From: Nitrospirota bacterium
Lineage (GTDB): Bacteria > Nitrospirota > JACRHJ01
DNA: 41,494 bases
Assembly (NCBI GenBank): GCA_963733375.1
Contig: CAVTDB010000011.1
Location: 1-41,494, forward strand
Direction of reading: 5' to 3'
In this document: piece after piece, positions 300 through 24,888 of the stretch
Layout: every line of letters begins with the position of its first letter
Position numbering within the stretch: position 1 is the stretch's first letter
The notes under the pieces: generated by a model
Database searches by the model: none
Told to the model about the DNA's origin: nothing
The model's input: the letters and a program-made list of their open reading frames with translations, nothing else
Position numbers and translations under genes: made by a program

Positions 300-412
300 T
301 AAGACCGTACTTTTCTTTCGCGTGAAAGAAAAGTACCAAAAGAAAGCGGAACTTTTGTACGGCTTTTCTTTGTGTTACTTTCTTTTCACCCGAAAAGAAA
401 GTAACGGTTTTA
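300..412. repeat. Triplex-type intergenic repeat locus 1 (inward-facing pair)
   Basis: gtac-ttttctttc-gcgt-gaaagaaaa-gtacc-aaaagaaag ... cttttcttt-gtgttac-tttcttttc-accc-gaaaagaaa-gtaac; ends taagaccg/cggtttta, the right end includes the yidD stop. Confidence 0.95.
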
Positions 413-619
413 CGGTACTGGATCGAACCCGCCCGGATGAAACGGGTGGCATTTTAATATCCTTTTGGCGGTAAGGAAGAAGCCCTTGAAGAAATCATAT
501 TTCGTGAATGCACAAAGGGAGTATTCCGAACAGGATGGATAGAAACGGCAACGCGAAGGCAGAAGCGGCGATATGACCGCCCTGTATAGCTTAATGATGC
601 CGATAAACAGCCATTTCAA
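410..619 (-). CDS. yidD: Membrane protein insertion efficiency factor YidD
   Basis: [10 protein letters not shown] and [17 protein letters not shown] motifs; synteny. Confidence 0.95.
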
Positions 620-1056
620 GGCTTATCCCTCTCCCTGTCTTTAATCACGGCGGGACGTCCGTCCAAATCACGGCTTATAACCGGCGGGTTTGCCAGCGAG
701 TCCGGTAATCCCGCCTTAATCTCGGCGAGCTTCCCGGCTATCCGCCGGACGTTCCTGGGCTATCTTAAAAAAAGGGGCGTCTCCTGCCCCTTTCCTTGCG
801 ATTAAAACCAGCTCCCACCCTGATAACGATGGGTCCAGTCCTGCCGGATGGCTTCCCGTATCCTCCGCTTCACGAGGTTACGCACGCATGCGCACCCGAC
901 CTTGCGGCTCACGGTCATCCCCACCCTTAAAGGCCCCTCTGCGGGCCTCATGACAGCTAATAAATATCTGCCCGGGCTTTTAATCCCCCCGCTGTATACC
1001 CGCTCGTACTCGGAGTGTCTCCTTATGCGGCGCGATTTATCGAGCGGGAACGGCAT
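616..1056 (-). CDS. rnpA: Ribonuclease P protein component (frameshifted in this sequence near 830 and 750)
   Basis: [28 protein letters not shown] (RNR motif); after a frame change continues as [16 protein letters not shown]... to a TGA at 616-618 overlapping the yidD TTG. Confidence 0.85.
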
Positions 1057-1084
1057 TGCCACTACCCCGAAAGGGAAAAACGTA

Positions 1085-1219
1085 CTATTTCGTAAGTCTC
1101 TTGCGGCCTTTGGCGCGTCTGCGCTTGATAACTAACCGTCCGCCCGCGGTGGACATCCTGGTTCTGAACCCGTGGGTGCGTTTCATTTTGATGTTGCTTG
1201 GCTGAAAAGTGATGCTCAT
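1085..1219 (-). CDS. rpmH: 50S ribosomal protein L34 (below the ORF-track size cut-off)
   Basis: Manual translation [52 protein letters not shown] upstream. Confidence 0.95.
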
Positions 1220-1262
1220 AGTCTTCTCCCGTTAAATTGATGCCTTCAGGTCAAAAAAGCGT

Positions 1263-1291
1263 ATTATTATTCAAAACGAAGGAAAAGTCAA
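1263..1291 (-). promoter_or_regulatory. Putative sigma70 promoter for rpmH
   Basis: Minus strand TTGACT-N16/17-TAATAA/AATAAT just upstream of rpmH. Confidence 0.4.
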
Positions 1292-1339
1292 GGATAGTTT
1301 ACTAAAACGCCCGGCATCTTGTCCCTGTTCATCCCTGTG

Positions 1340-1985
1340 TTTTTAAGATAAGAAAATAGTAACACTAATAGCTAGTGGCTGTGGAATTGTGGGGGGCGCT
1401 GTTAAGACCCCGTTAAGACACGTAAACCGGAGGTGGAAATCCTGTGGGTAAAATGGCCCCGCAACGGCCCTGACACTCTGCGTAACTACCCGCCTTAGTA
1501 TTTAAAAATACTTGAATTAACAGGTTTTTAAACTTTATTCAAGGGATAGAAATTTCTTGATTACCGACCCTGTTTCTGTTATCATGCAACACTCCCCTAT
1601 AAGGGGGATTAAGCGGGCAGGGGGACGGTTTGTTGCCGCCGTGTCCGCGTAATGTCTCGGGGCCGTGTCGTTTTAGTGACCGGCAAACTGGCAAGGACGC
1701 GCGTTGCCCTTTAAGCCCATAGACGGGACAAAGATCAGGGGCGTGGATGTGCAAAGGAATTCAAATGGGGAGCCAGGCTCTAAATTGGAGGGGGCTTGTG
1801 TTCCTGAGTAATTTAGACAGCTTTTTTGAAGCGTCTCCCCGCAAAGAAGCAAAACAACGGAAAAACGCGGACTTAAACCCTGTGAAAAATAATAGCTTAA
1901 CGCACGGTTTTAAGGTAAAAAGCAATTGAAAAATAAGTGAAAATTAACTTATCAACACCTGTGGAAAACGATGTGCGTAACTAAG
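1340..1985. promoter_or_regulatory. Probable oriC / dnaA regulatory region
   Basis: Intergenic between divergent rpmH and dnaA; DnaA-box-like 9-mers at 1380-1388, 1443-1451 (TTACCCACA on minus), 1881-1889 (TTTTTCACA), 1949-1957 (TTATCAACA), 1960-1968 (TTTTCCACA), 1972-1980; NAN trio run at 1354-1371; AT-rich tract near 1495-1560. Confidence 0.75.
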
Positions 1986-2047
1986 GCGCGGGAATAGACG
2001 CCTAAAACCATTATTGGTGAAGGCTTTATGGATTATCAGGAAAAATT

Positions 2048-22293: not shown

Positions 22294-23015
22294 TAGTAAT
22301 ACCCGCGATAGATTTAAAGGAAGGCAAATGCGTCCGGCTCCTCCAGGGGCGGATGGAGGACGCGACGGTGTACTCGGAGGACCCGGGAGGTACAAGCGGC
22401 GCATTTTGAGTCGCTGGGCGCGGAGCTGATACACGTAGTCGACCTGGACGGCGCGTTCGCGGGCGAATCCAAAAACCTCTCATCCATAAAGAAAATTTTA
22501 TCCGCCGTTAAAGTCCCCATAGAGGTGGGCGGCGGCATCCGCAACATGGAAACGATCGACTCTCTCCTGGGGCTTGGCGTGAGCCGGGTGGTGCTGGGCA
22601 CGGCCGCGCTGGAGGTGCCGGGGCTTTTAATTCTGGCATGCAAGAAGTATCCGGGCAGGATAGTCGCCGGAATAGACGCAAAAGACGGCAAAGTGGCCGT
22701 GCGCGGCTGGGGCGAGGTGTCGAGCGTGACGGTGGACGAGCTGGCTAAGCGGATGGAGGACGCAGGCGTGCGGGCGATAATCTACACGGACATCAGCCGC
22801 GACGGGATGATGACCGGCCATAATATCGAGGCTACAAAGCGCCTTGCGGGGCAGGTATCGACGCCGATTATCGCGTCCGGCGGCGTCAAGGATATAAGCG
22901 ACATAAAAGCGTTGATGGAGATAGAGGCCCTCGGCGTGGAAGGCGTAATCACCGGCAAGGCGGTATATTCCGGAGAGCTGAACTTAAAGAAGCAATTCAG
23001 ATAACGAAGAGCTAA
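22290..23015 (+). CDS. hisA: ProFAR isomerase HisA (frameshifts near 22390 and 22990)
   Basis: [43 protein letters not shown]; corrected end EAIQITKS* at 23013-23015. Confidence 0.93.
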
Positions 23016-23152
23016 ACCGTTACTTTCTTTTCTGTCTTCGCTATCGCTCTGGACAGGTAAATCATCTCGGGTGAAAAGAAAGTAACACAAAGAAAAGCCG
23101 GGTTAAAAACCGTCCAAAAGTTTTTGGCGCTACCTTTTTACAAAAAGGTAGC
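23013..23152. repeat. Triplex-type repeat locus 11 (pair; first unit carries the locus-5 insert in reverse orientation at 23033-23068)
   Basis: taaaccgttac-tttcttttc[tgtcttcgctatcgctctggacaggtaaatcatctc]gggt-gaaaagaaa-gtaacac-aaagaaaag-ccgg ... ttttt-ggcgctacc-ttttt-ac-aaaaa-ggtagc. Confidence 0.92.
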
Positions 23153-23171
23153 AAAGGTTTAAGGGGTGTCG

Positions 23172-24041
23172 ATGTTAGCAAGAAGAATAATTCCCTGTCT
23201 GGACGTAAAAGGCGGGCGCGTGGTAAAGGGCGTGAGCTTCGTGAACTTAAGGGACGCGGGCGACCCGGTGGAGGTCGCGAAGGCGTACGACGAGCAGGGC
23301 GCGGACGAGTTGACGTTCCTTGATATAACCGCCTCGCACGAGCAGCGCGGGATAATAATCGACGTGGTGCGAAGGACCTCGGAGCAGGTCTTCATGCCGC
23401 TCACCGTCGGCGGCGGGATAAAGAGCATAGAGGATATCAGGGAGCTGCTCAAGGCCGGATGCGATAAAGTGTCCATCAACACCTCCGCGGTCTATGACCC
23501 CCGGTTCATCAAGGCCGCGGCGGAGCGGTTCGGGAGCCAGTGCATAGTCGTGGCGATCGACGCGAAGAGGACCACGCCCGTGACGGACGCCGAGCGCGCG
23601 AAACAGATAGAGGAAATCAGCAAGAAACTGCACTGGGCGAACGACCCGGACTTCAAGACCCTGTTCTTCCAGGGAGTCAACAAAGACGGCCTGCACTGGG
23701 AGGTCTTCACCCACGGGGGCAGGACGCCGCAGTATATCGACGCGGTCGCATGGGCGGCGAAGATGGAGGAGCTTGGCGCGGGCGAGATACTGCTCACGTC
23801 GATGGACCAGGACGGGCAGAAGACGGGCTACGACATCGAACTGACGCGCGCGGTATCCGAGGCGGTCAACATCCCGGTAATCGCATCCGGCGGCGTTGGG
23901 AACCTTGAGCATATCTACGACGGCCTGACCGCCGGGCGCGCGGACGCGGCTCTCGCGGCCTCCATATTCCATTACAAGGAATATACTATCAAGGAGGCGA
24001 AAGAATACCTGCGCGATAAAGGCGTGCCGGTGAGATTATAA
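23172..24041 (+). CDS. hisF: Imidazole glycerol phosphate synthase cyclase subunit
   Basis: [45 protein letters not shown]. Confidence 0.97.
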
Positions 24042-24044
24042 CTT

Positions 24045-24085
24045 CGCTACCTTTCTTGAAAGAAAGGGTAGCGCCAAAGAACTTT
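24045..24085. repeat. Triplex-type repeat locus 12 (single short unit)
   Basis: gctacc-tttct-tgaa-agaaa-gggtagc-gcc-aaaga; tail AAAGA mirrors arm AGAAA. Confidence 0.8.
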
Positions 24086-24307
24086 ATGACGAAAAGCGAA
24101 CTGGAAATAGAACTGAAGAGGCTGAAAGACGAGCTTGAGGACCTGGAAGACGCTATAGCCTTCAACCTGATGAACACCTCCGCGCATATTCCGGGCGGAC
24201 ACGTGCGCAAGGACGAAGAGCTGCTGGAAGAACTTAAAGGAAAAATTGCCGAGATTGAAAAGAAGTTGAACAAATCAAACGGCAACCCCTTGCCGGGAGG
24301 TTCCTGA
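24086..24307 (+). CDS. Small hypothetical coiled-coil protein
   Basis: [61 protein letters not shown]..; heptad pattern; stop overlaps the next ATG (TGATG). Confidence 0.7.
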
Positions 24308-24789
24308 TGGAATTCCAATCCGTAAAAATAAACATCCCCGAGAACTGCAACGTAATCATAGGCCAGAGCCATTTCATCAAGACCGCCGAGGATTTATACG
24401 AGGCGATGGTGAACTCGGTGCCGGGGCGAAGTTCGGAGTCGCGTTCTCCGAGGCTTCCGGGCCTTGCCTGATAAGGGTCGAGGGCACGGACGAAGAAATG
24501 AAGGCGGCGGCGGTGGAAAATCTGAAGAACATAGCTTGCGGGCATTCGTTCTGCATCATGCTGAGGGACTGCTTTCCCGGTGAACGTCTTAAACGCCGTA
24601 AAGGACTGCCGCGAGGTCGCGAATATCTTCTGCGCGACGGCGAACCCGGTCGAGGTGATTGTCGCCCAGACGGAGCTTGGCAGAGGGATAATGGGCGTCA
24701 TCGACGGCTTCCCGCCGAAGGGCGTGGAAGGGCCGGAAGACGTGAAGAAGCGTAAAGATTTCTTGAGGATGATCGGATACAAGCTGTAA
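24307..24789 (+). CDS. Adenosine-specific kinase family protein (DUF355/PAE2307-like; two frameshifts)
   Basis: [61 protein letters not shown] assembled across frames. Confidence 0.85.
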
Positions 24790-24888
24790 AACCGTTACCT
24801 TTTTGGTAAAAAGGTAACGCCAAAAACTTTTAAACTGTCCCGCTTTCTTTTGGTTCTTTTCTTTCTCGCGAAAGAAAAGAACGGTTTT
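24787..24888. repeat. Triplex-type repeat locus 13 (pair)
   Basis: taaaaccgttacc-ttttt-ggt-aaaaa-ggtaac-gcc-aaaaa ... ctttctttt-ggttc-ttttctttc-tcgc-gaaagaaaa-gaacggtttt. Confidence 0.95.

What the first reader, a model, noticed from the sequence alone, without database searches (positions are those of the whole stretch)
300..24888. A-rich intergenic repeat family whose third tract co-varies as a mirror of the hairpin arm: an intrastrand triple-helix element
Seen: 24 units at 13 loci, each built as Y-arm / 2-4 nt loop / R-arm / short linker / R-tail, with the tail the mirror image of the R-arm and changing with it. Arm GAAAAGAAA goes with tail AAAGAAAAG (loci 1b, 3a, 8b, 9, 10a, 11a); GAAAGAAAA with AAAAGAAAG (1a, 3b, 5a, 8a, 13b); AAAAGAAAA with AAAAGAAAA (2b); AAAAGAAA with AAAGAAAA (10b); AGAAA with AAAGA (12); AAAAA with AAAAA (4b, 5b, 11b, 13a). 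Locus 5a combines the GGGT loop of one subtype with the arm of another, and its tail follows the arm. A hairpin or terminator does not require mirror symmetry. Established: hairpin plus mirror tract is the design of an intramolecular triplex (purine motif on one strand, parallel T.A-T/C+.G-C motif on the other), as proposed for the G-rich E. coli BoxC/PIT repeats. Inference: three-strand covariation implies selection on a triplex fold, and this dense A-rich multi-subtype family may be a poorly described structural or mobile element system.
Basis: partly seen in the sequence, partly recalled or inferred. Interest (0 to 1): 0.85.

Follow-up and report, generated by a model that had tools for sequence, protein, structure and literature searches.

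The report
A-rich hairpin repeats with mirror tails
A small mobile repeat that fills the gaps between genes of an uncultured Nitrospirota bacterium is built as a hairpin plus a tail that mirrors one hairpin arm, and its natural variation follows the rules of a three-stranded fold, an A/T-rich relative of the unexplained BoxC "triplex" repeats of E. coli.

Summary
All 24 units at 13 loci are in the window. The family is genome-wide: about 220 perfect hairpins with a tail in 2.39 Mb. It occurs in 9 of 11 genomes of the same Nitrospirota family.

- **Mirror rule.** Of 360 units from six genomes, 232 have a tail that is the mirror of the purine arm, 88 are symmetric, 4 are direct copies and 36 are neither. 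Eleven asymmetric arm patterns obey the rule.
- **Not a partner effect.** In dimers the tail follows its own arm (129 units), not the partner's arm (5).
- **New finding: a clamp.** Loop positions 2-3 pair, Watson-Crick and with covariation, with the two bases after the tail (133 of 140). This is independent of arm type, and it ties the tail's end to the hairpin tip.
- **Conservation.** Stems and tails diverge about four times more slowly than loops and spacers between two species.
- **Mobility.** Whole elements come and go between those two species. Exact units also occur in gut Lentisphaerota and Clostridia.

Best reading: a MITE-like repeat whose unit is an intrastrand triplex with pseudoknot topology, related in kind to BoxC/PIT/TMECO. 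The fold itself, the strand, DNA versus RNA, and the function remain untested.

The parts
307..348 (+). unit 1a, type I (arm runs 3,4; tail runs 4,3), loop gcgt, post-tail CG
361..405 (-). unit 1b, type II (arm 4,3; tail 3,4), loop gggt, post-tail CC; tail-to-tail partner of 1a
5623..5719 (+). unit 2a, type II, purine arm split by a 58-nt insert (5641-5698)
5734..5775 (-). unit 2b, type III (arm 4,4; tail 4,4)
6950..6994 (+). unit 3a, type II, loop gggt, post-tail CC
6994..7011 (.). central G+C-rich hairpin between the two tails of locus 3, flagged terminator-like on both strands
7010..7051 (-). unit 3b, type I, loop gcgg, post-tail CG
12892..12937 (+). unit 4a, counter-example: both arms lost the internal G:C (A8/T8) but the tail kept its G
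12960..12994 (-). unit 4b, type IV (arm AAAAAGG, tail CC+A5)
15917..15997 (+). unit 5a, type I with gggt loop, carrying a nested copy of a second ~36-nt repeat in its apex
16010..16045 (-). unit 5b, type IV-like
17319..17357 (+). unit 6a, degenerate
17376..17411 (-). unit 6b, degenerate type IV-like
18719..18759 (+). unit 7a, degenerate (bulged stem)
18778..18812 (-). unit 7b, purine arm 4,3 with tail 3,4
19722..19763 (+). unit 8a, type I; whole dimer 8a+8b is absent at the orthologous site of a sister species
19778..19819 (-). unit 8b, type II
20892..20933 (-). unit 9, type II, lone half; the sister species has a full IV+III dimer here
21548..21593 (+). unit 10a, type II; its orthologue in the sister species is type I in arm and tail, with the same loop, post-tail and partner
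21607..21647 (-). unit 10b, arm 4,3 without the closing C:G pair, tail 3,4 without the final G
23019..23101 (+). unit 11a, type II with a nested copy of the ~36-nt repeat (23031-23067) between T-rich arm and loop
23119..23154 (-). unit 11b, type IV
24050..24083 (+). unit 12, arm AGAAAGG with tail CC+AAAGA(A): mirror, not direct
24793..24828 (+). unit 13a, type IV
24841..24882 (-). unit 13b, type I

Best explanation
Each unit is a self-folding single-stranded module.
- A 13-14-bp hairpin carries a 9-10-bp homopurine/homopyrimidine tract.
- The flanking tail folds back along that tract in one-to-one register as a third strand. In the terms of Holder et al. 2015 this is a class II intrastrand triplex on the strand with the purine tail and class IV on the complementary strand.
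- The tail's far end is locked to the hairpin tip by a 2-bp Watson-Crick helix between loop positions 2-3 and the two bases after the tail. The whole therefore has H-type pseudoknot topology.

Units are joined tail-to-tail, always as two different types. They form a ~100-120-nt MITE-like, non-autonomous element that sits between a stop codon and the next ribosome-binding site.

Shown: the anatomy, the three-way and loop/post-tail covariation, conservation in place, and gain/loss between species.

Inferred: that the covariation reflects a physical triple-stranded fold. I also infer that the pyrimidine-tail strand is the better candidate, as T.A-T / C+.G-C triples in the major groove, possible in DNA or RNA. 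What the fold is for is unknown. My guess is either a recognition substrate for an unidentified mobilising enzyme acting on single-stranded DNA, or a structured RNA barrier or terminator within operons.
For: 1. Mirror rule. 232 mirror-only against 4 direct-only of 360 units; 11 asymmetric types; 0 of 2000 tail shuffles reach the observed count. Strict count: 200 mirror, 0 direct.
2. Own arm, not partner's arm. 129 against 5 of 222 dimer units; 69 fit both and 19 fit neither.
3. Length register. Tail length tracks tract length in all types. C-ended arms have G-ended tails and T-ended arms do not. Type IV has a 7-nt arm and a 7-nt CC+A5 tail.
4. Clamp.
   - Loop position 2 against post-tail position 2: G:C 77, C:G 55, A:T 1, other 7 of 140.
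   - Loop position 3 against post-tail position 1: G:C 138 of 140.
   - Mutual information is 0.88 bit, against 0.11 bit or less for all other loop x post-tail position pairs, except 0.46 for loop position 4 with post-tail position 2.
   - No permutation of 5000 reaches the observed value.
   - Arm type is nearly independent of it (0.085 bit).
   - The independent tool count gives CG 12, GC 11, other 2 of 25, with slid controls far lower.
5. Interleaving. Arm and tail sites alternate with loop and post-tail sites along the sequence, yet the two sets assort freely while each stays coupled.
6. Orthologues in a sister species at about 95% identity. By my reading there are 8 compensatory clamp switches against 4 one-sided ones. 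Full I<->II or II<->III switches with the tail following occur at loci 8, 21, 7 and 5.
7. Divergence by part. Stems 5.5%, tails 5.0%, loops 23.6%, spacers 20.8%.
8. Other genera and phyla keep both rules, with new types.
9. Precedent. The same three-tract design forms a triplex in vitro for E. coli TMECO. There too, inverted pairs always combine two different types (PMC4666352).
Against: - No physical test, and no RNA data (no RNA holder listed).
- The number of truly independent type-changing events is small, roughly ten. Gene conversion from other copies could produce the coordinated changes seen at orthologous loci.
- Counter-examples exist: unit 4a (arm lost its G:C pair, tail kept its G), locus 40, 36 of 360 'neither' units, and 28 of 64 distinct arm/tail haplotypes.
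- In I+II dimers the Watson-Crick-only minimum-energy fold pairs the two tails with each other in a cloverleaf. That fold would compete with a third-strand role.
- The base stem of 3-5 bp lies between the tract and the tail, with only a 1-2-nt linker. This is awkward for the purine-tail strand.
- The arm's basal G is matched by C, not G, before the tail, which is not a purine-motif triad.
- Holder et al. found no evidence of stable triplex formation in vivo for TMECO.
Confidence: 0.55

Rival explanations
1. Pseudoknot without Hoogsteen triples. The loop/post-tail helix is real, but the A-rich tail is only the connecting loop that runs along the minor groove of the long stem (A-minor type contacts). 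This is as in classical H-type pseudoknots read on the purine-tail strand.
For: The clamp covariation fixes the topology but not the groove. On the purine-tail strand the tail leaves the 3' end of the stem, where a classical loop 3 enters the minor groove (established pseudoknot geometry, recalled). The 1-2-nt linker fits this better than a major-groove purine-motif fold-back does.
Against: Minor-groove contacts do not require G opposite G:C and A opposite A:T. The position-by-position mirror rule over 11 asymmetric types is the code of major-groove triplexes. The tail is as conserved as the stems.
Confidence: 0.15
2. Watson-Crick-only element. The dimer is a cloverleaf or a bidirectional intrinsic terminator. 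The tails are the A-tract and U-tract flanking a central G+C-rich hairpin, and they pair with each other. The mirror relation is a by-product.
For: The central hairpin plus T-rich tract is flagged terminator-like on both strands. In most I+II dimers the central region folds at about -4 to -9 kcal/mol, though several give about -1 to -2 or do not fold at all. The minimum-energy folds pair tail a with tail b. The elements sit exactly between stop codon and next gene.
Against: Dimers are heterotypic (I/I 0, II/II 1 of 70), so the tails are always mismatched. The third position of the central stem is almost always mismatched, because it follows the unit's own loop. I+IV and II+IV dimers (29 of 70) have no central hairpin, yet they keep the mirror rule. 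A terminator needs no mirror symmetry. TMECO showed no terminator activity in the work cited by Holder et al..
Confidence: 0.12
3. History only. Units spread as whole copies and are homogenised by gene conversion. The mirror relation arose once or twice by chance in low-complexity A-runs, and no third-strand contact is selected.
For: Two types (I and II) make up 198 of the 200 strict mirror cases. They differ only by a one-base shift of G. Several orthologous changes look like block replacements (loci 7, 17, 21, 44). 28 of 64 distinct haplotypes fit neither rule.
Against: Direct-copy combinations of the two common words are never seen (0 of 360). Nine further asymmetric types obey the rule, some only in other genera or another phylum. 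The arm/tail set and the loop/post-tail set are interleaved yet assort independently. Tails are under the same constraint as stems at each locus.
Confidence: 0.1
4. Duplex-level feature. The purine arm plus tail is an H-DNA-forming mirror repeat in supercoiled double-stranded DNA, or a pair of protein-binding sites.
For: A homopurine mirror repeat with a 4-6-bp centre is the textbook H-DNA motif (PMC4666352 introduction).
Against: The Watson-Crick covariation between loop and post-tail skips one loop base. It fits a single-stranded fold, not a third strand continuing over duplex DNA. Hairpin stems covary. Proteins do not read mirror repeats as equivalent sites (general knowledge).
Confidence: 0.05

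Closest known systems
BoxC / PIT elements / TMECO and the ITxF classes of intrastrand triplex motifs (Holder et al. 2015, PMC4666352, sections read; Hoyne et al. 2000 only as cited there)
   Same: Three consecutive tracts on one strand: pyrimidine, purine, then mirror purine (class II, with class III/IV on the other strand). Dispersed and intergenic, with no strand bias. Inverted pairs always combine two different types. The loci are unstable between close relatives. No associated gene is known.
   Different: A/T-rich rather than G/C-rich, with no sequence similarity to the TMECO consensus. A 3-5-bp base stem extends the hairpin below the triplex tract. A covarying 2-bp loop/post-tail helix is present (I did not check BoxC for one). 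There are many arm/tail subtypes instead of one highly conserved sequence. The density is about ten times higher (about 220 in 2.4 Mb against 23 in E. coli K-12). The conserved outer ends are MITE-like.
MITEs of bacteria, for example Correia and ERIC-type elements (recalled; general description in PMC4666352 introduction)
   Same: About 100-120 nt, with inverted halves and conserved outer ends next to TA/TAA. Intergenic and non-autonomous. Present or absent between close relatives. Fold into stem-loops.
   Different: No cognate transposase was found. The two halves are never the same type. The units also occur singly and, in Lentisphaerota, head-to-tail.
REP/BIME elements with RAYT transposases (recalled)
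   Same: Short extragenic palindromes, paired in inverted orientation as two different types, very abundant and conserved across a bacterial family.
   Different: No Y1/HUH transposase gene in the genome (the genome is 81% complete). REPs have no mirror tail.
Triple-helix pseudoknots and ENE-type RNA triple helices: telomerase RNA, SAM-II and preQ1-II riboswitches, MALAT1/PAN ENE (recalled)
   Same: Read on the pyrimidine-tail strand, the topology is loop 1 (U-rich) lying in the major groove of stem 2 and reading the purine strand, with isolated C+.G-C among U.A-U triples.
   Different: Here the triple tract would be 9-10 long with only a 2-bp second stem. The element is a dispersed mobile repeat, and RNA expression is not shown.

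Membership tests
Intrastrand triplex motif repeats (ITxF definition; BoxC/PIT/TMECO kind) | Three consecutive homopurine/homopyrimidine blocks on one strand, in an order and polarity that allow Watson-Crick plus (reverse) Hoogsteen pairing, i.e. the third block is the mirror of the purine block | tested here: met
   232 mirror-only + 88 symmetric of 360 units; strict count 200 + 77
Intrastrand triplex motif repeats (ITxF definition; BoxC/PIT/TMECO kind) | Stem length 6-15 nt and loops of 1-6 nt (search rule quoted) | tested here: inconclusive
   The tract is 7-11 nt and the first loop 3-4 nt. The second 'loop' is 1-2 nt if the base stem stays paired, or 4-6 nt if it opens.
Intrastrand triplex motif repeats (ITxF definition; BoxC/PIT/TMECO kind) | TMECO consensus sequence (G/C-rich, given) | tested here: not met
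   The arms are T/A-rich with isolated C/G. This is a different family of the same kind, not a TMECO copy.
Intrastrand triplex motif repeats (ITxF definition; BoxC/PIT/TMECO kind) | Triplex formation of the isolated strand in vitro (CD, NMR) | not testable with these tools
   No tool here models Hoogsteen pairing.
MITE | Short non-coding element with terminal inverted repeats | tested here: met
   69 of 70 two-unit clusters are inverted tail-to-tail. The outer 6-7 nt are conserved.
MITE | Target-site duplication | tested here: inconclusive
   TAA flanks both ends at loci 6 and 14, with one TAA at the empty site. Flanks differ further, and other loci are unclear.
MITE | Insertion polymorphism between close relatives | tested here: met
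   7 of 46 orthologous loci lack the whole element in the sister species. Two of the 46 are duplicates of contig ends.
MITE | Related autonomous element or transposase | tested here: not met
   No Y1_Tnp. No DDE_Tnp_1 in five genomes. One DDE_3 fragment in the own genome only, with no unit nearby. The only genes bracketed by units are radical SAM proteins.
REP/RAYT system | RAYT (Y1 HUH transposase) gene in the genome | tested here: not met
   PF01797: 0 matches in the own genome, which is 81% complete. Other genomes were not searched.
Intrinsic (Rho-independent) terminator | G+C-rich stem-loop followed directly by a U-tract | tested here: inconclusive
   The central hairpins of I+II dimers match a consensus scan on both strands. 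I+IV and II+IV dimers have no central hairpin. No transcript data.
H-type pseudoknot | A second helix between hairpin-loop bases and bases outside the hairpin, supported by covariation | tested here: met
   133 of 140 Watson-Crick pairs at the covarying position; tool count
Any Rfam family | Match at the gathering score | tested here: not met
   0 matches in the window
DUF559-nuclease-associated triplex repeats (lead from earlier notes of this scan) | DUF559 gene present and bracketed by the repeat | tested here: not met
   PF04480 is absent from the own genome and from two other repeat-rich genomes. The three hits in two further genomes have no unit of this family beside them.

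The most novel reading that the evidence does not exclude
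The unit is a mobile triple-helix pseudoknot that crosses phyla. Read on its pyrimidine-tail strand, it forms a 9-10-triple U.A-U / C+.G-C major-groove helix clamped to its own loop. It would then do one of two things. As RNA, it would be a bacterial counterpart of ENE or telomerase-type triple helices that ends or shields polycistronic transcripts. As single-stranded DNA, it would be the recognition fold of a still unknown mobilising enzyme. Either way, natural covariation would here give the first evolutionary proof that a bacterial intrastrand triplex is under selection.
Probability: 0.2. Interest if true: 0.85.

Novelty: new variant of a known kind. Interest (0 to 1): 0.62.

Why it matters
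Intrastrand triplex repeats (BoxC/PIT/TMECO) have been known since the 1990s and 2000, yet they have no function and no evidence that the triplex matters in cells. They are almost invariant in sequence, so evolution could not be asked.

This family is different. It has many subtypes, and across those subtypes the third tract, its length and a loop contact all change together. That turns the question "is the three-stranded fold selected?" into something testable by sequence comparison and by a few oligonucleotide experiments.

The family also fills most intergenic gaps of a small genome, and exact copies occur in unrelated gut bacteria. It therefore bears on operon structure and on how such elements move between lineages.

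Tried and rejected
- Rfam scan of the window: nothing.
- RNA evidence: no RNA holder listed.
- Strand inference from G.T against A.C mismatches in stems: only 12 usable mismatches, no signal.
- Orientation relative to transcription:
  - Units are 65 b-type against 62 a-type in co-directional contexts.
  - I+II order is 9 against 6.
  - Lone units are 27 against 14.
  - None is decisive, and the gene calls are my own crude ORF picks.
- Partner enzyme:
  - Y1_Tnp, DDE_3, DDE_Tnp_1 and DUF559 were sought.
  - Genes bracketed by units are radical SAM proteins.
  - Neighbours of the Lentisphaerota copies are an HrpB-type helicase, a Xer-type recombinase and an oxidoreductase.
  - No candidate emerged.
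- 'Tail is a copy of the partner's arm': rejected.
- 'Tails exist to pair with each other': rejected as the main constraint, because dimers are heterotypic.
- 'Direct repeats are merely avoided': rejected, because symmetric types keep direct = mirror tails.
- Target-site duplication could not be settled.
- Earlier notes of this scan gave no hit for this genome or sequence.

Full report
**What is there**

The window is one whole contig of a 2.39-Mb, 26-contig assembly with about 55% G+C. It starts near dnaA. By DnaA identity of 97-98%, its nearest public relatives are uncultured Nitrospirota MAGs.

Reading the loci gives 24 units at 13 loci, as claimed.

A unit reads, on the strand that carries the purine tail:
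- a conserved outer flank (A-rich, then YC);
- a 3-5-bp base stem;
- a T-rich arm with isolated C;
- a 3-4-nt loop;
- the complementary A-rich arm;
- a 1-2-nt linker ending in C;
- an A-rich tail;
- then G C N G G.

Units lie tail-to-tail in inverted pairs, and 69 of 70 two-unit clusters in the genome do so. The pairs span the gap from a stop codon to the next ribosome-binding site. No Rfam family matches.

**Genome-wide census**

Among perfect hairpins with stems of 8 bp or more, those with a pyrimidine 5' arm outnumber the opposite arrangement by 1284 to 230, counting both strands. After de-duplication, 240 T-rich/A-rich hairpins remain, and about 220 have a recognisable tail.

The hairpin pattern occurs in 9 of 11 other genomes of the same family, spread over four genera. 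It occurs in 0 of 29 genomes of other families of the phylum. The reversed control pattern gives 0 everywhere.

**The mirror rule**

I describe arms and tails by the lengths of their A-runs. In G000, arm 3,4 goes with tail 4,3 in 76 units, 4,3 with 3,4 in 58, and 4,4 with 4,4 in 10. No type I arm carries a type II tail, or the reverse.

I added 360 kb of a sister species, parts of three other genera and one more contig, which gave 360 units.
- The strict count is 200 mirror, 77 symmetric, 0 direct and 83 other.
With them the count is 232 mirror-only, 88 symmetric, 4 direct-only and 36 neither.
- Shuffling tails among units gives a mean of 76 mirror-only and never more than 101 in 2000 shuffles.
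- Eleven asymmetric arm/tail types obey the rule. Several are seen mainly in another genus, such as 1,3 with 3,2, 2,2 with 2,3 and 3,2 with 2,3.
- Counted as distinct haplotypes, the picture is weaker: 18 mirror, 16 symmetric, 2 direct and 28 neither of 64.

**Is it only the partner?**

In I+II dimers the tail of one unit equals the purine arm of the other, so 'tail copies the partner's arm' is confounded with 'tail mirrors its own arm'. Over 111 dimers (222 units), 129 units fit only the own-mirror rule, 5 fit only the partner rule, 69 fit both and 19 fit neither.

Dimers are heterotypic: I+II 22, I+IV 20, II+IV 9, I+I 0, II+II 1 and IV+IV 1. Holder et al. report the same for E. coli TMECO: inverted pairs always combine type A with type B.

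**A second, interleaved covariation**

Take the 140 units that have a C-ended arm, a 4-nt loop and a G-ended tail.
- Loop position 2 and the second base after the tail are G:C in 77, C:G in 55, A:T in 1 and something else in 7.
- Loop position 3 and the first base after the tail are G:C in 138.
- Mutual information is 0.88 bit. Every other loop x post-tail position pair gives 0.11 bit or less, except 0.46 for loop position 4 with post-tail position 2; loop position 4 goes with loop position 2.
- No permutation of 5000 reaches the observed value.
- Other loop classes fit the same antiparallel 2-bp helix: cgag with CT, gcaa with TG, and cggg with CT as a G.T wobble.
- The count of structure pairs, run on 26 fixed-length units, gives CG 12, GC 11, other 2 for this pair. 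The stems are 100% paired with four covarying pairs, and the slid controls are far lower.

Arm type is almost independent of the loop class (0.085 bit). Along the sequence, the arm and tail sites alternate with the loop and post-tail sites. Each set stays coupled while the two sets assort freely. Descent or recombination with ordinary breakpoints would not give this; selection for compatibility within each set would.

Because the post-tail base follows its own loop, the third position of the central stem of I+II dimers is nearly always mismatched.

**What the two rules mean together**

- The tail's 3' end must reach the hairpin tip.
- The tail's length always equals the length of the purine tract.
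- Its G positions line up one-to-one with the arm's G:C pairs in antiparallel register.

That is the design of an intrastrand triplex: class II on this strand and class IV on the complement, as defined in PMC4666352. Here it also has the topology of an H-type pseudoknot.

From helix geometry and from known triads (my inference, not tested), the pyrimidine-tail strand is the better candidate.
- Its tail is 'loop 1' crossing the major groove of the long stem, so a 1-2-nt linker to the 5' end of a 3-5-bp base stem is plausible.
- Every position has a known triad: T.A-T, isolated C+.G-C, and G.G-C at the basal G or GG.
- On the purine-tail strand the basal G is faced by C, and the turn would need the base stem to open. 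The base stem nevertheless covaries.
- According to the paper, pyrimidine-type intrastrand triplexes also form in RNA, whereas purine-type ones do not.

**Evolution in place**

A sister species is syntenic at about 95% identity over about 300 kb. Of 51 element loci on four contigs, 46 could be placed. Two of these are duplicates, because contig ends overlap.
- Seven loci lack the whole ~100-nt element in the sister species. Others differ by half an element or by small inserts.
- Among 52 distinct orthologous unit pairs, I read 8 clamp changes that keep the pair (loci 0, 7, 17, 18, 21, 22, 27 and 47). Four changes are one-sided, and two of those go to G.T.
- Arm type switched with the tail following at loci 8 and 21 (I<->II) and at loci 7 and 5 (II<->III). 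At locus 8 the loop, post-tail and partner are unchanged.
- Loci 18, 43 and 17 are partial. Loci 3 and 40 go against the rule.
- Conversion from other copies could produce many of these changes, so I do not count them as independent proof.
- Divergence by part over 32 loci is stems 5.5%, tails 5.0%, loops 23.6%, spacers and linkers 20.8%, and outer flanks 8.9%. The tail is as constrained as the stems.

**Beyond the family**

- The exact type II unit (arms, base, linker and tail fixed; loop free) is found in 50 stretches of the species-representative genome collection. Forty are Nitrospirota. Ten are gut Lentisphaerota/Victivallaceae, Clostridia or an unnamed bacterium.
- The type I unit is found in 42 stretches: 41 in Nitrospirota and 1 in a Spirochaetia MAG.
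- In Lentisphaerota the units stand head-to-tail. With two exceptions among the copies outside Nitrospirota, they keep both rules. New types appear there: 4,2 with 2,4, and A8 with A7.

**Rivals**

- The Watson-Crick-only fold of a dimer is a cloverleaf in which the two tails pair imperfectly. The central hairpin plus T-tract also looks like a bidirectional terminator. This may well be part of the biology. It does not explain the mirror rule, the heterotypic pairing, the mismatched central position, or the dimers without a central hairpin.
- A pseudoknot whose tail is only a minor-groove spacer fits the clamp but not the base-by-base code.
- Duplex H-DNA does not fit the Watson-Crick clamp.

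**Mobility and partners**

- No Y1/HUH transposase in the own genome, which is 81% complete.
- No IS4/IS5-type DDE gene in five genomes.
- One IS630-type fragment in the own genome only, unrelated to the units.
- No coding element bracketed by units.
- DUF559, a lead from earlier notes of this scan, is absent from three repeat-rich genomes. Where it is present, it is not flanked by this family.

**Literature**

- Searches found Holder et al. 2015, of which I read sections 3, 15, 16, 18 and 20.
- Searches found nothing on such repeats in Nitrospirota, and no later work on intrastrand triplex repeats of this kind among the listed titles and abstract starts.
- Supplementary tables could not be seen.

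**Verdict**

The fold itself, the strand, the molecule and the function remain untested.

In kind it belongs with BoxC/PIT/TMECO. It is a new variant in being A/T-rich, in its many subtypes, in its base-stem and clamp architecture, in its MITE-like packaging and in its density.

Noticed in passing
window 23031-23067 and 15939-15975 (opposite orientation); about 27 copies genome-wide: A second, ~36-nt dispersed repeat with a short inverted repeat at its ends. About 10 of its copies sit in the apex of the A-rich hairpins, always directly 3' of a T-rich arm ending TTTC/TTTT. Other copies sit in other hairpin repeats or in tandem. It looks like a tiny element that targets hairpin tips.
   Followed up: partly
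window 5641-5698: A 58-nt insert splits the purine arm of unit 2a. Two partial relatives exist elsewhere in the genome (contigs C10 and C13), and none in the 360 kb of the sister species examined.
   Followed up: partly
window 2048-3425: dnaA reads as two overlapping ORFs in different frames (2048-2518 and 2334-3425). This is a frameshift or an assembly error in a G-rich stretch.
   Followed up: no
window 420-2040: About 1.6 kb upstream of dnaA has no ORF of 100 aa or more and has AT-rich patches. It is possibly the replication origin region.
   Followed up: no
window 1-420 and contig C12 1-350 of the same assembly: The same element dimer lies at the ends of two contigs in opposite orientation (loci 0 and 11). 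Loci 17 and 38 on C12 and C13 behave likewise. The assembly seems to break at these repeats, so copy numbers are lower bounds.
   Followed up: partly
L148 2215-2470, L158, L176 (gut Lentisphaerota MAGs); L137, L145, L173 (Clostridia MAGs): Exact type II units outside the phylum. In Lentisphaerota they stand in head-to-tail arrays with a second unit type (CCTAC base). One copy supplies the last codons and stop of an HrpB-type helicase gene.
   Followed up: partly
own genome, contig C13 2071-2499: A lone IS630-type (DDE_3) transposase fragment in a G+C-rich stretch. It is absent from four related genomes and is not flanked by the repeat.
   Followed up: yes
L133 about 1869-1910 (a same-genus genome, beside a DUF559 gene): A G-rich hairpin followed by a G-rich tract, of a different family from the one studied here.
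   Followed up: no
class A units genome-wide: Loop position 4 goes with loop position 2: T after g, G or A after c. Its mutual information with post-tail position 2 is 0.46 bit. A possible extra contact at the clamp, unexplained.
   Followed up: no
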